Source: an uncultured virus (IMG/VR IMGVR_UViG_3300013426_000033)
Taxonomy: Duplodnaviria; Heunggongvirae; Uroviricota; Caudoviricetes
IMG/VR virus record: IMGVR_UViG_3300013426_000033
Reading direction: 5' to 3' (one strand)
DNA: 20,000 nucleotides
The notes beneath the pieces are model-generated. The model saw only the letters and a list, made by a program, of their open reading frames with translations. It did no database searches and had not been told where the DNA came from. The number at the start of each line of letters is the position of its first letter. The first letter of the stretch is position 1. Shown here one piece after another: positions 1 through 6,186 of this stretch. Made by a program: the position numbers and the translations under genes.

Positions 1-1010
1 TTTATCTTTACTTCTGCAACATTACATTGCAGTCCAGCATAACTTTTCACGCTTAATGTCGATGCGTGGCGCGGCCTCGTGGTAGGATTATATCTTTTCA
101 CCTACTATGCGTTGCCCCTGACTATATTTAATATAGCCTTCGGTTCTGATTGCCTTTGTATACGGTTTTCCAGCTTAATTCCGCGCTAATAATATTAAAT
201 CTTCAATCGACTTGATTTAATACGGCATTTCTAATTTGAACAAATTTTTCATATTTACGGTCTAAAAATATATTACTGTTTAAATAAATAGAAGATAAAT
301 TAGAATAACATTTCCAACTACACCATTCAATGCTATACGCATTACTTCTTTTATCTTTGCGCATTTTAGCATCAAACCAATCCATTTTAGAAATTAATTC
401 TGTTAAAAATTCTGGAGAGCCAGATGTTAAACTCATCCTGCCAGTTAAACAATGTTTATTTTGTGTAATTCCTATATATCCGTCCCCATCAAAATATCCT
501 CTAACAAAATCTCTAAGAAAATCATTAGGAACCTATTCTTCTGTGGGGAATTGTAATTGCAAACTTTTATTAGGACAACAGCCTAATTTAATTAAATCAT
601 TATGCATCTTTTTTCTACTAATAGCAAAAGATACTTCATTATACCCATTTACAATTTTATCGCTTACTTTTGCCGGAGAATTCAAAAACTTCTTAAACTT
701 AACCAAATGATTAATATCTCTTTGCTGTAATACAATGCTTATATGATTATTTTCTCCTTTCCGAATATATCCATCGGCATAAAGAAAACCTAACCAATAA
801 GCTTTTTCTTCCGTATCAATTAAAGAAAAAATATTGTCATTAGTTCCATTATCATTCTATCTATTTATTACAATATATCCTTGGCTTTTTATATACTCTC
901 CCAAATGACCTCGACTACATTGTAATTTTTTAGAAATCTAAGTCAAACTTAAATCTCCTTGTAAATATAATTTTAAATCCTCTTCGTATTTTTCGTTCAT
1001 TTTAGATTTT
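1..1010 (-). mobile_element. Group I intron in the DnaB-like helicase gene (3' splice site just beyond the left edge of the window)
   Basis: The helicase frame breaks right after Walker A ...GTGVG (GGT at 1013-1011), with TAA at 1004-1002. Minus-strand core: P2 TATTAAATC/GATTTAATA, P3 GCGCGG(186-181)/CCGCGC(74-69), P-like GCGGAATTAAGCTGGAA, Q-like AATCAGAACCGAAG, R-like GGGGCAACGCATAG, P7 GCATA(110-106)/TATGC(41-37), P8 CACGC/GCGTG, P9 CTGCAA/TTGCAG. The core is clearly similar to the intron at 3399-3699. The 5' splice site is inferred by analogy because the 3' exon is outside the window. Confidence 0.88.
203..1000 (-). CDS. Intron-encoded double-motif LAGLIDADG homing endonuclease, 265 aa (3 TAG read as Gln)
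   Basis: ATG at 1000 to TGA at 205-203, open except for 3 TAG. Motifs KAYWLGFLYADG and FVRGYFDGDG, C-terminal FLDRKYEKF, HTH-like N-terminus. The ORF track shows only the last 77 aa. Confidence 0.92.
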
Positions 1011-1694
1011 ACCAACACCCGTTCCTGCCGAAGAAACTACAAACTTTCTTGGCTGGATACCTTTTGTTATAGTTGTCATATAATTGCTTGCATAAGACAG
1101 ACCATAAGCAGGAGTTTTCTTCCATTCTTCTTTTTGCTTTTTAGCTTCATCGCTACCAGCTTTAACACTATCTCGCCCAACTTTAGGACTATATTCTTGC
1201 GTGATATTAGATACTTTTTGCCTAAAATGATTAAGAATTTCATCAATAGTCATTTGACTAAATTTATATCTTTGTTCATCAGCAATCTCAGGGTCTTCTT
1301 CGTTAGGGTCAAAAATTTCATCAACTTCAATACCTGATTTAAGATAGGCACGAAGAAGAGAAAACTTTTTCATTTCTTGATAATTAGAGTTAAAATTTTC
1401 TGGTGTGGCTAATTCTTTAGCCTTTTCAACATAAAGATTACCATTATTCCTTGTATAAATATTATACAAAGACTGAAGATTATTTTTTAAATAATCATCA
1501 ATAATATATTGGTCAAGCTTTACCGCGCCTTGTGAGAAAAGATTGTTTATTGCTACAAACAAAAGCTGATGGAAAGCTTCAACAAAATCTTTTTTGTCGA
1601 TTTTATTACTTGTTAATAAAGTTGGATTCTACAGTAAACAGCCAAGAACTTCTTTAATTGCAGATTTGCTTTGATAATCTCTATAATCCGCCAA
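1011..1694 (-). CDS. dnaB: DnaB-like replicative helicase, exon 1 (228 codons; remainder beyond the window)
   Basis: TTG at 1694 after a G-rich SD. N-terminus MADYRDYQSKSAIKEVLGCLL(TAG=Q)NPTLL...DFVEAFHQLLFVAINNL resembles the DnaB N-terminal domain. The exon ends in ...TKGIQPRKFVVSSAGTGVG, the Walker A region of SF4 helicases. Confidence 0.82.
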
Positions 1695-1695
1695 G

Positions 1696-2391
1696 TTACC
1701 CCCCCCATTCTTCAGGATGTTCAGACATTATTTCCTGAATATCTCTTTGTAGTTCTGATAAATACATACCATCTTTTCCTCTTTGCTTTTGAAGTCCTCT
1801 TCTAAAATCATAATCTCCAATAAAGTCAGTGTTAACAAGACCATCATCAACGATATCATCAGCAGAAATTTCTTCTTTATGATTTCGTTTGTCTCGTTTT
1901 TCATCGTCCTCTTCTTGTTTCTTAATAATTTCAGAACGAGCTACATCTATCGCTATAGGCGGTTTTGTTAATATATATTCGATAAATTCAGATTTAGTCA
2001 TCCTCATCTCTTTATACTTTTGCCAAAATTCTCTTGATTCGGCAAAATAACGTATAACCATGAAGATATCTGATTCTGTTTCTATCTTGGGAGCTGGATT
2101 GTCAGCATACTCATACATATAATATAAAGTAAAAAGAATTTGAGAATTAGTCATTCCATATTTTTCTTTGATTCTTTTTATATATGTTGTTATAAGAGGA
2201 GCATTCACCCATTCTCTTATACCAAGAACATCCCAAAGATAATCAGTTAAAGTCTTGTAATCTTTTGCATCTTGTGCTGGCTATTTACCACAAATAGGAC
2301 AATAATTTTTACCATTTACAGTAATAATTTCCTCTGTAGGAAACATCTTACCACAAACGCTACATTTTCTGTTCTTCTTTGGTGGTGCTAT
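1696..2391 (-). CDS. Zn-finger (CxxC...CxxC) hypothetical protein, about 231 aa, possibly a replication accessory factor
   Basis: Reading through TAG at 2283-2281 extends the 1696..2208 ORF to include RKCSVCGKMF...KNYCPICGK. SD GAAAGGAG precedes ATA at 2391 by 8 nt; the alternative in-frame GTG at 2400 overlaps the SD. Ends in TAA 1 nt before the helicase start. Confidence 0.8.
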
Positions 2392-2424
2392 AATCCTCAC
2401 TCCTTTCTTAAAATATTAAAACGG

Positions 2425-2462
2425 AAAATAAAGGGGAATAGTAATCAATTTTACTATTCCCC
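2425..2462 (-). terminator. Rho-independent terminator after the Sak4-like ATPase
   Basis: Perfect 12-bp inverted repeat GGGGAATAGTAA/TTACTATTCCCC (2433-2444, 2451-2462), 6-nt loop, followed on the minus strand by TTTATTTT. Confidence 0.8.
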
Positions 2463-2471
2463 AATAATTAT

Positions 2472-3792
2472 TTATTCTACTGTAATATTATTTTCAGTAC
2501 AGTAATCTTTCAAATCATCGAGAATAAGCAAAAGCATATCCAATTGAGATTCATCGCAATCTTTTACACTCTTACCCTTTCCAAGATATTCTGCAATAAT
2601 CTTCTTATACTCTGTACTACCAGTATTATGAATAGCCTTTACATAACTACCAATTTCAGCAATAAGCTCATCAACGCTCTTCTTTTCATCTTCGGTTACT
2701 TCGTTATCCTTAAAGAGATTAACCTCATTATCAACAACTGTAGCACCGTGAGCCTTTTGTTCATCAATAGCCTTTGCCATGTCATCACGCAATGCTTCAT
2801 AAGTAAATGGAATGCATTCAGACATATAAGGGCTACGAGAACCAGCCTCAAGATGTTTGTTACCTCTCATCGTAAGCATGGAATGAACATTACCTTGTTC
2901 ATCAGTTTCGTAAGAAGCATAACCAGTTACGTCAACAAGACGAGAAACGACAAGGAATCCACGGTCAGGTACAGTAGGAATAGTCTTATCATACTTTTCA
3001 CCGTTTTCCTTAATCTGTTTAGTAGTAGCATGAGAAATACAAATCAAAGTATAACCAGCTTTAACAATCTCTTGGAAAAATTTATCATATTCACGAGACA
3101 AAGCACGATAACCACGCATCTTTTCAGTCTCGTCAAGATAATCTACACCTTCTTTGTCTACGATATACTTTTCACAAAGGTCGTAGGCAATATCAATAGT
3201 ATCGACAATTACCGTTTTAAAGATTGTTTCTCTATTTTCCTTTTCAGCCGCTTCTGCATCTTTAAGCAACTGCTTCTTTACTTCAAGAGCTTCTTTCCAA
3301 GTGTTAATTGGCTGTGCAATAATGCCATCCAAAAAACCATAGCCCTTTTCGAAACCGAGCAAAATAGGCTTTGGGAATTTACAAGCGTTTGTAGTTTTCA
3401 TTGTTATTATCTGTAAGCTTTTTATCTTACACTCTGGAGCTTTCGCTCATTTTCATCAATCTGTCAATTCAGATTCAGTTTGGCGTACTTTTTCAACCTT
3501 ATACGAGATAAGGTGTTGCGGACTCTTGGTAATATTATATTCTTTAATCAAAGGTTCAATTACTACGCTCTGCCCCTGTTTATCATTTTAATAATAAACT
3601 TCGGTTCGAGTTAACATAATTATTACAAATTAAGTCTTCTCGCTTAATTCCGCAATTTCGTCAATTGTCTTACAACAAAGGGTGGCAAAACACTACGCTA
3701 CCACTTTTTCTTTCTCCATAAATGAGAAAACTCTTACCACTAAGGTCACGAGTGACCACATTAGGCTTAATGCTAAAAATATCAATACCCAT
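2472..3792 (-). CDS. P-loop ATPase, Sak4/AAA_24-like phage recombinase, 339 aa; spliced join(3792..3700, 3398..2472)
   Basis: Exon 1 MGIDIFSIKPNVVTRDLSGKSFLIYGERKSG (SD TAAGGAG) joins exon 2 KTTNACKFPKPILLGFEKG to rebuild Walker A GERKSGKT. Walker B TVIVDTID and ICISH motif are present. An SSB gene lies nearby, which is typical of Sak4 systems. Confidence 0.85.
3399..3699 (-). mobile_element. ORF-less group I intron, 301 nt, in Walker A of the ATPase
   Basis: 5' exon ends in U (AGTGGT) and pairs with internal GCCAC through a U.G wobble (P1). GTAGTGTTTT can pair with 3' exon AAAACTAC (P10). P3 TTGCGGA(3655-3649)/TCCGCAA(3522-3516), P7 GCGTA(3568-3564)/TACGC(3487-3483), P8 CCTTAT/ATAAGG. Terminal G at 3399. 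Removal restores the frame and the GKT motif. Confidence 0.93.
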
Positions 3793-4586
3793 TATTTAAA
3801 TGTCTCCTTATTATATTCTTTTAATTTTAAATAACTCTCATATTTTCTTGTTAAACGTATATCATCTGTAGAATCTTTATACAATTTATCTAAATATTCT
3901 TCACATAAAAACCTTCCACTACAACCAAAGTTCCAAGCATTTGCTCTTTTAACTTTAGTGACTTTAGATTCAGATTTTCCATTACTTAAATAAAATTGAA
4001 TTTGTTTTAAAAAAGCTTCTTATCCAACAAAATCTATCCTGTAATGATGTTCTGATACAACAAAAGAAATACTTCCGTCTCCATCAAAATATCCGCGAAT
4101 AAAGTGAAAAATATAATTTTCTCCTATGTTTGGAATACGGTCAATTTTTAAAGACTTCTAAGGAACACAACCCCATTTTCTTAAGTCTTCTACCATTTGT
4201 TCACTTTTCACTTGAAAACAATAAGTTGTACAAACAGGAGTGAATCTTTTATCTTCTCTTACCCTAATTGAATATCCCTCTGTAGATATTGCCGTTTTAA
4301 ATTTTTTTACATGGTCTAAATCTTTTAATTCTAAGCAAACTTTGTTGGCATGAACACAACCGTCTGCATATAAAAAACCTAACCAATAAGCCTTTGCAAA
4401 ACTATCAATCTAATTAAAATACAGATGATTTACAGAGTATAAATCTGTATAAGTTCTTGTAGAGTAGCCAAAAGATTCTAATGCTTTTTTAATTTCATCC
4501 CTTGTAACTTTTAACTACTCTTGAATTTCTCTTACAGATTTTTTCTCTTTTTTAAATAATTTAACAATTTCTTCTTCCTATCTCAT
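3792..4586 (-). pseudogene. Free-standing double-motif LAGLIDADG endonuclease gene (265 codons, 4 TAG=Gln) with an internal TAA at codon 189
   Basis: ATG at 4586, 3 nt after the SSB stop. Motifs KAYWLGFLYADG and FIRGYFDGDG, C-terminal RLTRKYESY. In-frame TAA at 4022-4020 (GTT GGA TAA GAA GCT), after which the frame continues homologously to TAA 3794-3792, which overlaps the ATPase ATG (TAATG). Absent from the ORF track. Confidence 0.85.
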
Positions 4587-4589
4587 TTG

Positions 4590-5537
4590 TTAGAAAGGAA
4601 TGTCCGAGTCATCATCAATAACAGGAGACATCTTTCCAGAACCCTTCTTACCAAAGCCTGTAGGTGCAGAAGAATTACTACTACCCTTAGAACCCTGATA
4701 TCCAGCTTCCTCAAGTTCCTTTAAACGACTTGCTCTCTCATTGAGCATAGCTTTACACATCTGAGGAGTGATAATCATATCTTCCTGCTCATCTTCATCA
4801 TAAGCAATATCACCACCAGTAAGAACCATTTCAAGATAGCTCTTACCCTCAGTTACTCTCTGCTGACCAAAACCCTTGGTCTTAGGCTTTGCTTCGCCCT
4901 TTTCATTAGGCTTCCAGCTAACATACATCTTAGCAGTAGCTCCCTTGACATAACCGTTATCTTCAAGAGCATCCACAAAATCCTTTGGGATAATAATGTT
5001 CTTAATATCAAGAGCGTTATGATAAAAATCCATGCTAATAAGATTTAAACGCTTTCTACCAGTAGGCTTCTTATCATCTTCAGGACCACGCTCTTCATCT
5101 GTAATACTCTTAATATATCCTTCAATATCAAGGTCGCAAGCAAACTTTTCAAAATCATTAAAGAATTGCATAGAAGCGACAGTGCCCTCATGAAGCTGTT
5201 CATCAGAACCTACATAATCATTTGCACTAAGAGAACCAACAAGTCTTACCATAGTAGCATTTTCCTTGTCTTTGGTCATAGGAACTGCTTTCTTAACCCA
5301 GTCAAGAACCTTTTCATAGTTCTCACTATCTGTACCATCGGCCTTCTTAGCCTTAATGAAAGAAGTGAAAGAACGAGTCATTACACTGTCTTCGCCACAC
5401 TGAATTTGTCCACGAATACGAATGTAATCAACACCATTCTTATCTACGCCCTACTTGGACTCAATATCAGCGAGATAACCCGCAAGAGTCACACTATTTG
5501 TCAATCTACGAATCTGGTCAGTATTTTTTGTAGCCAT
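4590..5537 (-). CDS. ssb: Single-stranded DNA-binding protein, 315 aa (probably tandem OB folds)
   Basis: SD AAAGGAG, ATG at 5537, N-terminal NSVTLAGYL, one TAG at 5453-5451 (codon 29). Gly/Ser-rich linker and acidic C-terminal tail DDDSDIPF characteristic of SSB. Confidence 0.85.
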
Positions 5538-5572
5538 TATTTTTGTACTCCTTTAATTTTGTCTTTTAATTT

Positions 5573-5752
5573 TTAGTCTTCGTTTTCATTGTCATTATCG
5601 TCATCGTCAATAGACTTGTAATCATTACAAGCATCAAACGTTAAAGTTACACCCAAATCTCTTCGAGCATCTTCAAGGAAAGGCTTAAGCTTTGCATACG
5701 CCGAGCACTTTACCAAAAAACGACAATCTTCACACGCAAGATTATTAACCAT
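5573..5752 (-). CDS. Small Cys-containing protein, 59 aa, acidic tail
   Basis: SD TAGGAG, ATG at 5752, MVNNLACEDCRFLVKCSAYAKLKPFLEDARRDLGVTLTFDACNDYKSIDDDDNDNENED, TAA at 5575-5573. First gene after the promoter. Confidence 0.75.
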   Translation of the reverse strand: MVNNLACEDCRFLVKCSAYAKLKPFLEDARRDLGVTLTFDACNDYKSIDDDDNDNENED

Positions 5753-5803
5753 TGTACTATCTCCTAATTATTCAAAAAATCAACCTACCTTGGTTGTGAA
5801 TAA

Positions 5804-5832
5804 AATATAACACAACTTTGCTATCTTGTCAA
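5804..5832 (-). promoter_or_regulatory. sigma70/sigmaA-type promoter for the replication module
   Basis: TTGACA(5832-5827)-17 nt-TATATT(5809-5804), with an extended -10 TGn and an upstream A/T tract. Confidence 0.8.
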
Positions 5833-5853
5833 GCACTTCTGAAAAAAATTTTT

Positions 5854-6186
5854 TTAATCGGTCAATCCATTGTCATCAGCGCCAAAACGCCTTGTCGTTC
5901 CATGTTTTGCCATAACCCAGCAATTGTTAAAGCTTCCCTTTTTAAGCATTATCTCTACAGAATCTCCTTCTCTTAACTCAAAAGGAGTTTGATTCTAAAT
6001 TCTCGTAAATTCCGTTTCAGGCTCCCGAGGTAAAATTACATCTACTGTACCATCACTATTTACATTAGTCACTGTGGCACTTTCAATTCTCGGCGAGGTT
6101 CTTTTTATTTCTGCCGTGACACACTAAAGTATTCTATTTAGCATTTCATCAGCATATTGGTCATAATTATTATTTTTATCTATCAT
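5854..6186 (-). CDS. Hypothetical 110-aa protein at the end of the tail module (possible OB-fold baseplate/spike-type protein)
   Basis: ATG at 6186, 3 nt after the upstream TGA. Open with 2 TAG to TAA 5856-5854. Contains ESATVTNVNSDGTVDVILP...FELREGDSVEIML. Not in the ORF track. Confidence 0.75.

What the first reader, a model, noticed from the sequence alone, without database searches (positions are those of the whole stretch)
1..3699. Two related group I introns at the same Walker A G|K position in two different ATPases
Seen: the intron at 3399-3699 splits GERKSG|KT. The intron starting at 1010 follows AGTGVG and apparently splits G|K of the helicase. Their cores share blocks (GCGGAATTAAGC, GAACCGAAG, CAGGGGCA, TAA(A)GATAAA). 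Inference: one intron lineage targets P-loop codons (GGT|AAA) across unrelated ATPases, the same hot spot inteins use in DnaB-type proteins. An intron in a Sak4-like recombinase is not one I recognise as described.
Basis: partly seen in the sequence, partly recalled or inferred. Interest (0 to 1): 0.72.

Follow-up and report, generated by a model that had tools for sequence, protein, structure and literature searches.

The report
Intron family repeatedly hits ATPase P-loops
Two related introns, predicted to be self-splicing, interrupt a phage helicase gene and a likely DNA-annealing ATPase gene at the same Gly|Lys point of the ATP-binding loop, but their family sits in dozens of other conserved gene positions too, so this is likely one favoured landing spot of a known intron type rather than a P-loop-seeking lineage.

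Summary
Intron A (3399-3699, 301 nt) splits a Sak4-like gene at GERKSG|KT. Intron B (1010 to 21 nt left of the window, 1031 nt, LAGLIDADG ORF) splits a DnaB-like helicase at GTGVG|KT. Intronless alleles in relatives fix both sites. A covarying group I core (P3-P9, atypical P7) is well supported, although Rfam misses it.

The targeting inference is only partly right. The same family interrupts DnaE twice in this genome and about 57 distinct sites elsewhere; 6-7 are Walker A G|K, in five ATPase families. Walker A introns do not form one clade (AU p=0.027), nor do their endonucleases (p=0.008). A and B are only 68% alike in the core.

Best reading: a near-fixed GCC guide demands GGU at the 5' exon, and retention at conserved motifs makes G|K a recurrent site. 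A wider-family member annotated in GenBank (JCL1032 terL) already sits at this site. Inteins insert one codon downstream (K|T). Two metatranscriptome contigs show the exact Sak4 junction (suggestive only). This scan noted Walker A introns earlier on other DNA.

The parts
3700..3792 (-). Sak4-like ATPase exon 1 (31 codons, ends Walker A GERKSG, last codon GGT)
   Evidence: contiguous GERKSGKT in 15 of 20 related loci
3399..3699 (-). Intron A, 301 nt, ORF-less group I intron, ends in G
   Evidence: model R1 141 bits (A was in the training alignment); exact 301-nt skip in contigs of runs X9 and X11
3682..3691 (-). Intron A internal guide: G3686 opposite exon U3700 (P1, 5 bp), 3691-3687 complementary to the first five bases of exon 2 (P10)
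   Evidence: read from sequence; P1 also in the MFE folds
3482..3655 (-). Intron A catalytic core: P3 3655-3649 with 3522-3516; P4 3642-3639 with 3610-3607; P7 3570-3564 with 3487-3482; one extra helix P7.1; P8
   Evidence: coordinates; covariation on alignment A2
2472..3398 (-). Sak4-like ATPase exon 2 (starts at the Walker A Lys)
   Evidence: PF13479, phrog_124
1011..1694 (-). DnaB-like helicase exon 1 (ends SSAGTGVG, last codon GGT; one TAG read as Gln; start codon inferred)
1..1010 (-). Intron B, 1031 nt in all; runs 21 nt past the left edge to the terminal G at genome 51531; exon 2 (genome 51530 downward) starts KTRLTIAN
   Evidence: R1 196 bits (B was in the training alignment); a 268-nt ORF-less version at the same site in L122
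203..1000 (-). Double-motif LAGLIDADG ORF, 265 aa, in the L1 loop of intron B; four TAG codons read as Gln; its last codons overlap the guide and P2
   Evidence: PF14528 6.7e-10, phrog_4645 2.5e-57
36..226 (-). Intron B guide and core: guide GCC 226-224; P3 186-181 with 74-69; P7 112-106 with 41-36

Best explanation
The two inserts have the group I intron fold and sit at GGT|AAA in two ATPase genes; they are predicted to self-splice, and the shared site is likely convergent, because this intron family almost always needs an exon ending in GGU and likely persists only at highly conserved codons such as the Walker A Gly-Lys. Shown: boundaries, empty alleles, covarying P3/P4/P6/P7/P7.1/P8/P9 helices, wide spread of sites, GGT at most 5' exon ends with a GCC guide. 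Inferred: guanosine-initiated two-step splicing (from group I chemistry); spread at a given site by homing through the L1 LAGLIDADG (B), with A as an endonuclease-less remnant; rare moves to new sites that offer GGU to the guide; long-term retention where precise loss is the only viable loss and the homing target cannot drift. Until splicing, neither ATPase could be made, since each break precedes the catalytic Lys.
For: Structure on 53 aligned members: 97.2% of cells paired, 27 of 42 pairs with two-sided changes, 0 of 500 shuffles as high, slid controls 31-42% paired; the P7 pair 127-250 and the bulged base covary. Family spread: 122 matches in 120 of about 350 viral stretches and 62 matches in 60 GTDB stretches, 5 of them chance, in terminase, capsid, tape measure, dUTPase, RecA, gyrase, NrdD, Pol A, RNR and others. 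81 of 97 motif-placed 5' exons end GGT. Two more members in DnaE of this genome at GCT|AAA and GGT|TTT. Walker A introns not one clade (10 changes on 13 rows, p-AU 0.027); their endonucleases group by site, not by motif (p-AU 0.008). Intron-bearing alleles carry GGT while 11 of 11 close empty Sak4 alleles carry GGC and 15 of 18 empty helicase alleles GGA or GGC, as a U-G splice pair requires. Preference for conserved sites is published (PMC2814812, abstract).
Against: Splicing was not shown: the joined GGT|AAA contigs in X9 and X11 (one study) have no intron coverage and could be an empty GGT allele (2 of 15 empty alleles have GGT). Walker A G|K is enriched about tenfold over random GGT codons (6 of 57 sites against about 5 of 510 codons, p about 2e-5); no conservation-matched null was available, so a real extra preference is not excluded. 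A+B as sisters is not rejected (p-AU 0.52). The core tree has 167 columns and only 5 starred branches of 75. The GGT count came from hand-written motif patterns; 16 of 97 placements were not GGT. Why the guide stays GCC is not explained.
Confidence: 0.72

Rival explanations
1. A P-loop-seeking sub-lineage: the introns move between unrelated ATPases because guide plus P10 read GGU|AAA (reverse splicing), or because one endonuclease clade cuts GGT-AAA-like DNA.
For: 6-7 independent Walker A G|K sites; A has a full 5-bp P10 against exon 2; by BLAST the best hits of B's endonuclease are mostly from G|K sites; A+B clade not rejected.
Against: All-Walker-A clade rejected (p-AU 0.027); G|K endonuclease clade rejected (p-AU 0.008); B ranks 94th of 157 among A's neighbours and A 148th among B's; outside Walker A only 5 of 50 sites start exon 2 with Lys, as chance gives.
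Confidence: 0.18
2. The introns are kept as regulatory switches that gate ATPase synthesis on GTP or translation state, coupled here to TAG recoding.
For: Each break precedes the catalytic Lys; B's endonuclease needs TAG read as Gln and overlaps the guide; a 'molecular on-switch' idea is discussed for phage introns (PMC11878797, Discussion).
Against: Both sites are empty in most close relatives (15 of 20 and 18 of 20), and the family also occupies structural genes.
Confidence: 0.07
3. One intron is a recent within-genome copy of the other.
For: Same genome, same junction, shared blocks.
Against: Core identity 68%, below the family median for both; B's 3' half is closer to the DnaE intron D (73.5% over 136 nt) and A's P7 spelling matches intron C.
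Confidence: 0.03

Closest known systems
Lactobacillus phage JCL1032 terL intron (NC_019456, CDS joined from two pieces; described as spliced in vivo and subgroup IA1 by Riipinen and Alatossava 2004: recalled, not read)
   Same: Scores 105 bits with the model built here; same P7 spelling as many members, same P7.1 and 3' end; 226 nt inserted at Walker A MGRKNG|KT, GGT|AAA, with a GCC guide.
   Different: P4/P5 of the type found in this genome's DnaE introns rather than the A/B type; host gene is terminase; no ORF.
Bacillus phage AR9 gyrA introns (KU878088, CDS joined from three pieces)
   Same: 109 and 106 bits with R1; same P7 variant.
   Different: Non-P-loop sites in gyrase A; the describing paper was not held.
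Canonical phage IA2 introns (Bastille/Megatron DNA polymerase intron; T4 td type; Rfam RF00028)
   Same: Group I core with an extra helix between P7 and P3; homing endonuclease in a loop.
   Different: Canonical GACUA-type P7, only 38 bits with R1; Rfam does not detect A or B.
Classic P-loop inteins (DnaB-b, MCM-a, TerL1-a)
   Same: Recurrent insertion in Walker A of unrelated ATPases (PMC4760082, PMC5050341, passages).
   Different: Protein splicing; inserted between Lys and Thr/Ser, one codon downstream of G|K; constraint is a +1 nucleophile, not a 5' U-G pair.
Group I introns in crAss-like phage ATP_43b and in staphylococcal phage helicases
   Same: Introns in an AAA ATPase (PMC7886860, passages) and in a helicase (PMC5526547, passages).
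   Different: Neither passage gives the site, the intron family or a Walker A link.

Membership tests
Group I intron | Exon-terminal U paired with guide G in P1 | tested here: met
   A: U3700-G3686 in a 5-bp P1; B: U1011-G226 in a 3-4 bp P1 across the ORF
Group I intron | Terminal G and precise restoration of the reading frame | tested here: met
   empty alleles
Group I intron | P3-P7 pseudoknot with G-C binding pair after a bulged base | tested here: met
   P3 99.7% and P7 100% paired, two compensated pairs each; invariant G-C at 129-249; bulge covaries
Group I intron | P4-P5-P6 domain, P8, P9 | tested here: met
   (P4 99.5%, P5 78.6%, P6a 94.8%, P8 96.9%); the invariant pairs lie in the search pattern and say nothing
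Group I intron | Guanosine-dependent self-splicing | not testable with these tools
   joined junction in two RNA-library contigs is suggestive only
Rfam RF00028 | Score above threshold | tested here: not met
   no hit at E<=1 or E<=10
Class IA group I intron | Extra helix between P7 and P3 (criterion recalled; P7.1 named as a class feature in PMC3984707) | tested here: met
   P7.1, 5 of 5 pairs compensated, 100% paired
Subgroup IA1 / IA2 / IA3 | Best score among GISSD subtype models | not testable with these tools
   models not held; likeness to JCL1032 terL (IA1 by recall) and low score of an IA2-type intron
Sak4 recombinase | AAA_24/Sak4 profile match with Walker A and B | tested here: met
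   PF13479, phrog_124
Sak4 recombinase | ssDNA annealing with a cognate SSB | not testable with these tools
   an upstream gene ending DDDSDIPF looks SSB-like but has no Pfam hit
DnaB-like SF4 helicase | DnaB N and C domains | tested here: met
   PF00772, PF03796, phrog_19
   p-AU 0.027
   6-7 of 57 sites; DnaE sites in own genome

The most novel reading that the evidence does not exclude
A large Rfam-invisible group I family with a structurally locked GCC guide colonises new genes by RNA-level recognition of GGU|AAA, making Walker A G|K an intron counterpart of the classic intein P-loop hot spot, hit independently in helicases, Sak4 recombinases, Clp ATPases and terminases beyond what conservation alone predicts.
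Probability: 0.25. Interest if true: 0.6.

Novelty: new member of a known kind. Interest (0 to 1): 0.34.

Why it matters
Practically, this family splits core genes in many gut phages and in Bacillaceae chromosomes and is missed by Rfam, so helicases, terminases and Sak4 genes are annotated as fragments (for example the cultured phage KLEB27-3 helicase). Conceptually, a family with dozens of natural sites and a near-constant GGU| rule is a good system for separating how introns reach new sites (RNA guide, endonuclease) from why they stay (conservation). The Walker A coincidence alone is not surprising to a specialist, as a wider-family member is already annotated at this site in JCL1032.

Tried and rejected
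Rfam scans found nothing relevant. Two automatic splice-site callers were too noisy and were replaced by motif-guided placement and hand curation; one search's Walker A tally (17 viral, 7 GTDB) was lowered by one each after L059 and L200 proved to lie elsewhere in the motif. Five GTDB matches (L155, L165, L185, L189, L198) were dropped as chance; matches whose 3' end lay outside the locus gave no site. Endonuclease-led targeting looked possible from BLAST ranks but the tree rejected it. Collaborative homing by the free-standing LAGLIDADG upstream of Sak4 is not supported: it was found only in the window and near-identical L123, has an internal TAA here, and three other intron-bearing loci lack it. 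RNA runs: all contigs, none raw reads; X12 and X4 hold an empty GGC allele, X1 and X4 hold the intron, X10 showed no junction; no spliced helicase junction was seen. Paper searches for 'group I intron + Sak4', '+ P-loop + intron insertion site' (0 papers), '+ helicase + Walker A' and '+ intein + Walker A' gave no description of Walker A targeting by introns; the library lacks most subscription journals. The intron catalogue in the supplement of PMC11878797 could not be read and may list helicase or Sak4 introns.
Full report
Context. The window is the last 20 kb of a 71.5-kb phage fragment; relatives reach 210-220 kb. Long ORFs open only when TAG is read as Gln. All genes discussed are on the minus strand.

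Observation. Intron A spans 3699-3399. Exon 1 ends GERKSG (GGT), the intron ends in G, exon 2 begins KTTNACK, and the join gives 340 aa matching AAA_24 and phrog_124 Sak4-like. Intron B starts at 1010 after SSAGTGVG (GGT) and ends 21 nt left of the window; the helicase resumes KTRLTIAN and both DnaB domains are found. B carries a 265-aa LAGLIDADG ORF between the 5' splice site and the guide. Of 20 related loci, 15 lack A and 18 lack B, with contiguous Walker A motifs; L122 has a 268-nt ORF-less B at the same site. All filled alleles have GGT; all 11 close empty Sak4 alleles have GGC, and 15 of 18 empty helicase alleles have GGA or GGC.

Structure. Rfam finds neither intron. A two-block pattern from the shared motifs found about 350 viral stretches, of which 120 loci (122 matches; 40 loci with only 300-nt flanks) were returned, and 60 GTDB stretches (62 matches, 5 chance). 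An alignment of A, B and 51 short non-redundant members supports P3, P4, P5, P6, P7, one P7.1, P8 and a P9 hairpin: 97.2% of cells paired, 27 of 42 pairs compensated, 0 of 500 shuffles as high, slid controls 31-42%. The structure was drawn from this alignment, and pattern columns are invariant by construction. P7 is not the canonical spelling but keeps the G-C binding pair, and the flanking pair covaries with the bulged base. A has a 5-bp P1 with U-G and a 5-bp P10; B has a short P1.

Where the family sits. Model R1 finds four members in this genome: B, A and two in DnaE at KSIA|KK (GCT|AAA) and RGYG|FN (GGT|TTT). Elsewhere the hosts include terminase (several sites), capsid, tape measure, dUTPase, RecA, gyrase A, NrdD, Pol A and Bacillaceae RNR at NPCG|EQ. 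Walker A G|K accounts for 16 of 122 viral matches (5' exon seen in 13) and 5-6 of 57 GTDB matches. By hand-curated distinct sites it is 6 of 57, or 7 with L190, whose exon 1 was not fetched: DnaB, two Sak4-like families, ClpX-like, TerL, and a RecQ-like helicase (the RecQ label and that of L177 rest on recalled motifs, not a profile search). That is roughly tenfold over random in-frame GGT codons (p about 2e-5, crude null). At least three intact GGT-encoded P-loops in this genome are empty. 81 of 97 motif-placed 5' exons end in GGT opposite a GCC guide; of the other 16, seven are GGT as placed, four are a capsid site with GCT and a GGC guide (two shown), one is GGC, and four are unresolved or elsewhere.

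Is there a P-loop lineage? Core identity of A and B is 68%; B ranks 94th of 157 for A and A 148th for B; Walker A introns at different sites average 0.711 against 0.738 for other between-site pairs and 0.823 within a site. On a 78-row tree the label needs 10 changes for 13 rows (25 of 500 shuffles as low) and one clade is rejected at p-AU 0.027, while A+B+L009 is not rejected (0.52). The tree is weak (167 columns). The endonucleases of G|K introns group by site and are rejected as a clade (p-AU 0.008, 21 rows).

Expression. No raw-read RNA run was offered. Contigs of X9 and X11 (one study, RNA libraries) skip exactly 301 nt and read GGT|AAA, with 111 nt of the upstream side and the first 43 nt of exon 2 identical to the window's intron-bearing allele. 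They show no intron coverage and may contain DNA, so an empty GGT allele is not excluded.

Mechanism. Shown: boundaries, fold, polymorphic presence, GGU rule, scattered ancestry. Inferred: standard group I splicing restores the P-loop; B spreads by homing, with its ORF translated from unspliced RNA just after the in-frame stop and needing TAG readthrough; A has lost or never had its own endonuclease; new sites are sampled among GGU-ending positions and kept where the protein motif cannot change (PMC2814812, abstract; PMC3984707, passages and section 5).

What is known. A lead from earlier finding e1-5403179 pointed to JCL1032. Its terL intron scores 105 bits with R1 and lies at MGRKNG|KT, GGT|AAA; removing 226 nt from the joined CDS leaves 603 codons. 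Its splicing in vivo and IA1 label are recalled, not read. AR9 gyrA introns, phiR1-37 and KLEB27-3 also score above 100 bits, a Bastille-type intron 38; KLEB27-3 has an unannotated member at its helicase GQSNVG|KS. Classic P-loop inteins lie between Lys and Thr (PMC5050341; PMC4760082; passages). Introns in a crAss AAA ATPase (PMC7886860, passages) and staphylococcal phage helicases (PMC5526547, passages) are mentioned without sites. Also seen: PMC11878797 (parts 1, 3, 4), PMC12880540, PMC6125680, PMC2504315, PMC5312081 (passages), PMC11835236 (part 2). Searches found no paper on Walker A targeting by introns or naming a Sak4 intron.

Verdict. Real, well-supported introns; new members of a known kind. 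The Walker A coincidence reflects a recurrent site of a broad family, not a dedicated lineage. The residual interest lies in the family-wide GGU rule and the untested size of the Walker A excess.

Noticed in passing
G000 44676-43437 and 43307-43038 (L001), minus strand: Two more members of the wider family split DNA polymerase III alpha; the first (1240 nt) carries a LAGLIDADG ORF; 129-nt exon between them.
   Followed up: yes
window 15304-14051, minus: A 1254-nt group I intron with canonical-type P7 and a zinc-finger/nuclease-like ORF splits the tape-measure-like gene at YREG|IGW; not found by R1 or Rfam.
   Followed up: partly
window 3792-4586, minus: Free-standing LAGLIDADG gene (phrog_4645) overlapping the Sak4 start codon, with an in-frame TAA at 4022-4020; found only here and in L123 among 20 related loci.
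   Followed up: partly
whole fragment: TAG read as Gln (code 15); the intron endonucleases hold 3-4 TAG codons each while the Sak4 gene holds none.
   Followed up: partly
L140 about 4845-5998: A different group I intron (canonical P7, LAGLIDADG ORF) in the same Sak4 gene about 14 codons downstream of the Walker A site.
   Followed up: partly
L203 (OM634661, Bacillus phage KLEB27-3) 1983-2653: Unannotated family member at the helicase Walker A GQSNVG|KS in a cultured phage; helicase annotated as two ORFs.
   Followed up: partly
L143, L146, L151-L153 and 13 other GTDB loci: Family members in Bacillaceae ribonucleotide reductase genes at TNPCG|EQPL, with or without an ORF.
   Followed up: partly
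L170: A member appears to interrupt a tRNA-like gene rather than a protein gene.
   Followed up: no
L032, L059, L200: Terminase Walker A introns whose 5' exon seems to end in C rather than U; L059/L200 lie at another position of the motif.
   Followed up: partly
L095: Three family members within about 1 kb of one gene, probably a capsid gene.
   Followed up: no
L005, L010, L015 and 14 other loci: Frequent site in an unannotated glycine-rich membrane-like protein (GAW|WIIIL; phrog_16490), often with an ORF in L8.
   Followed up: no
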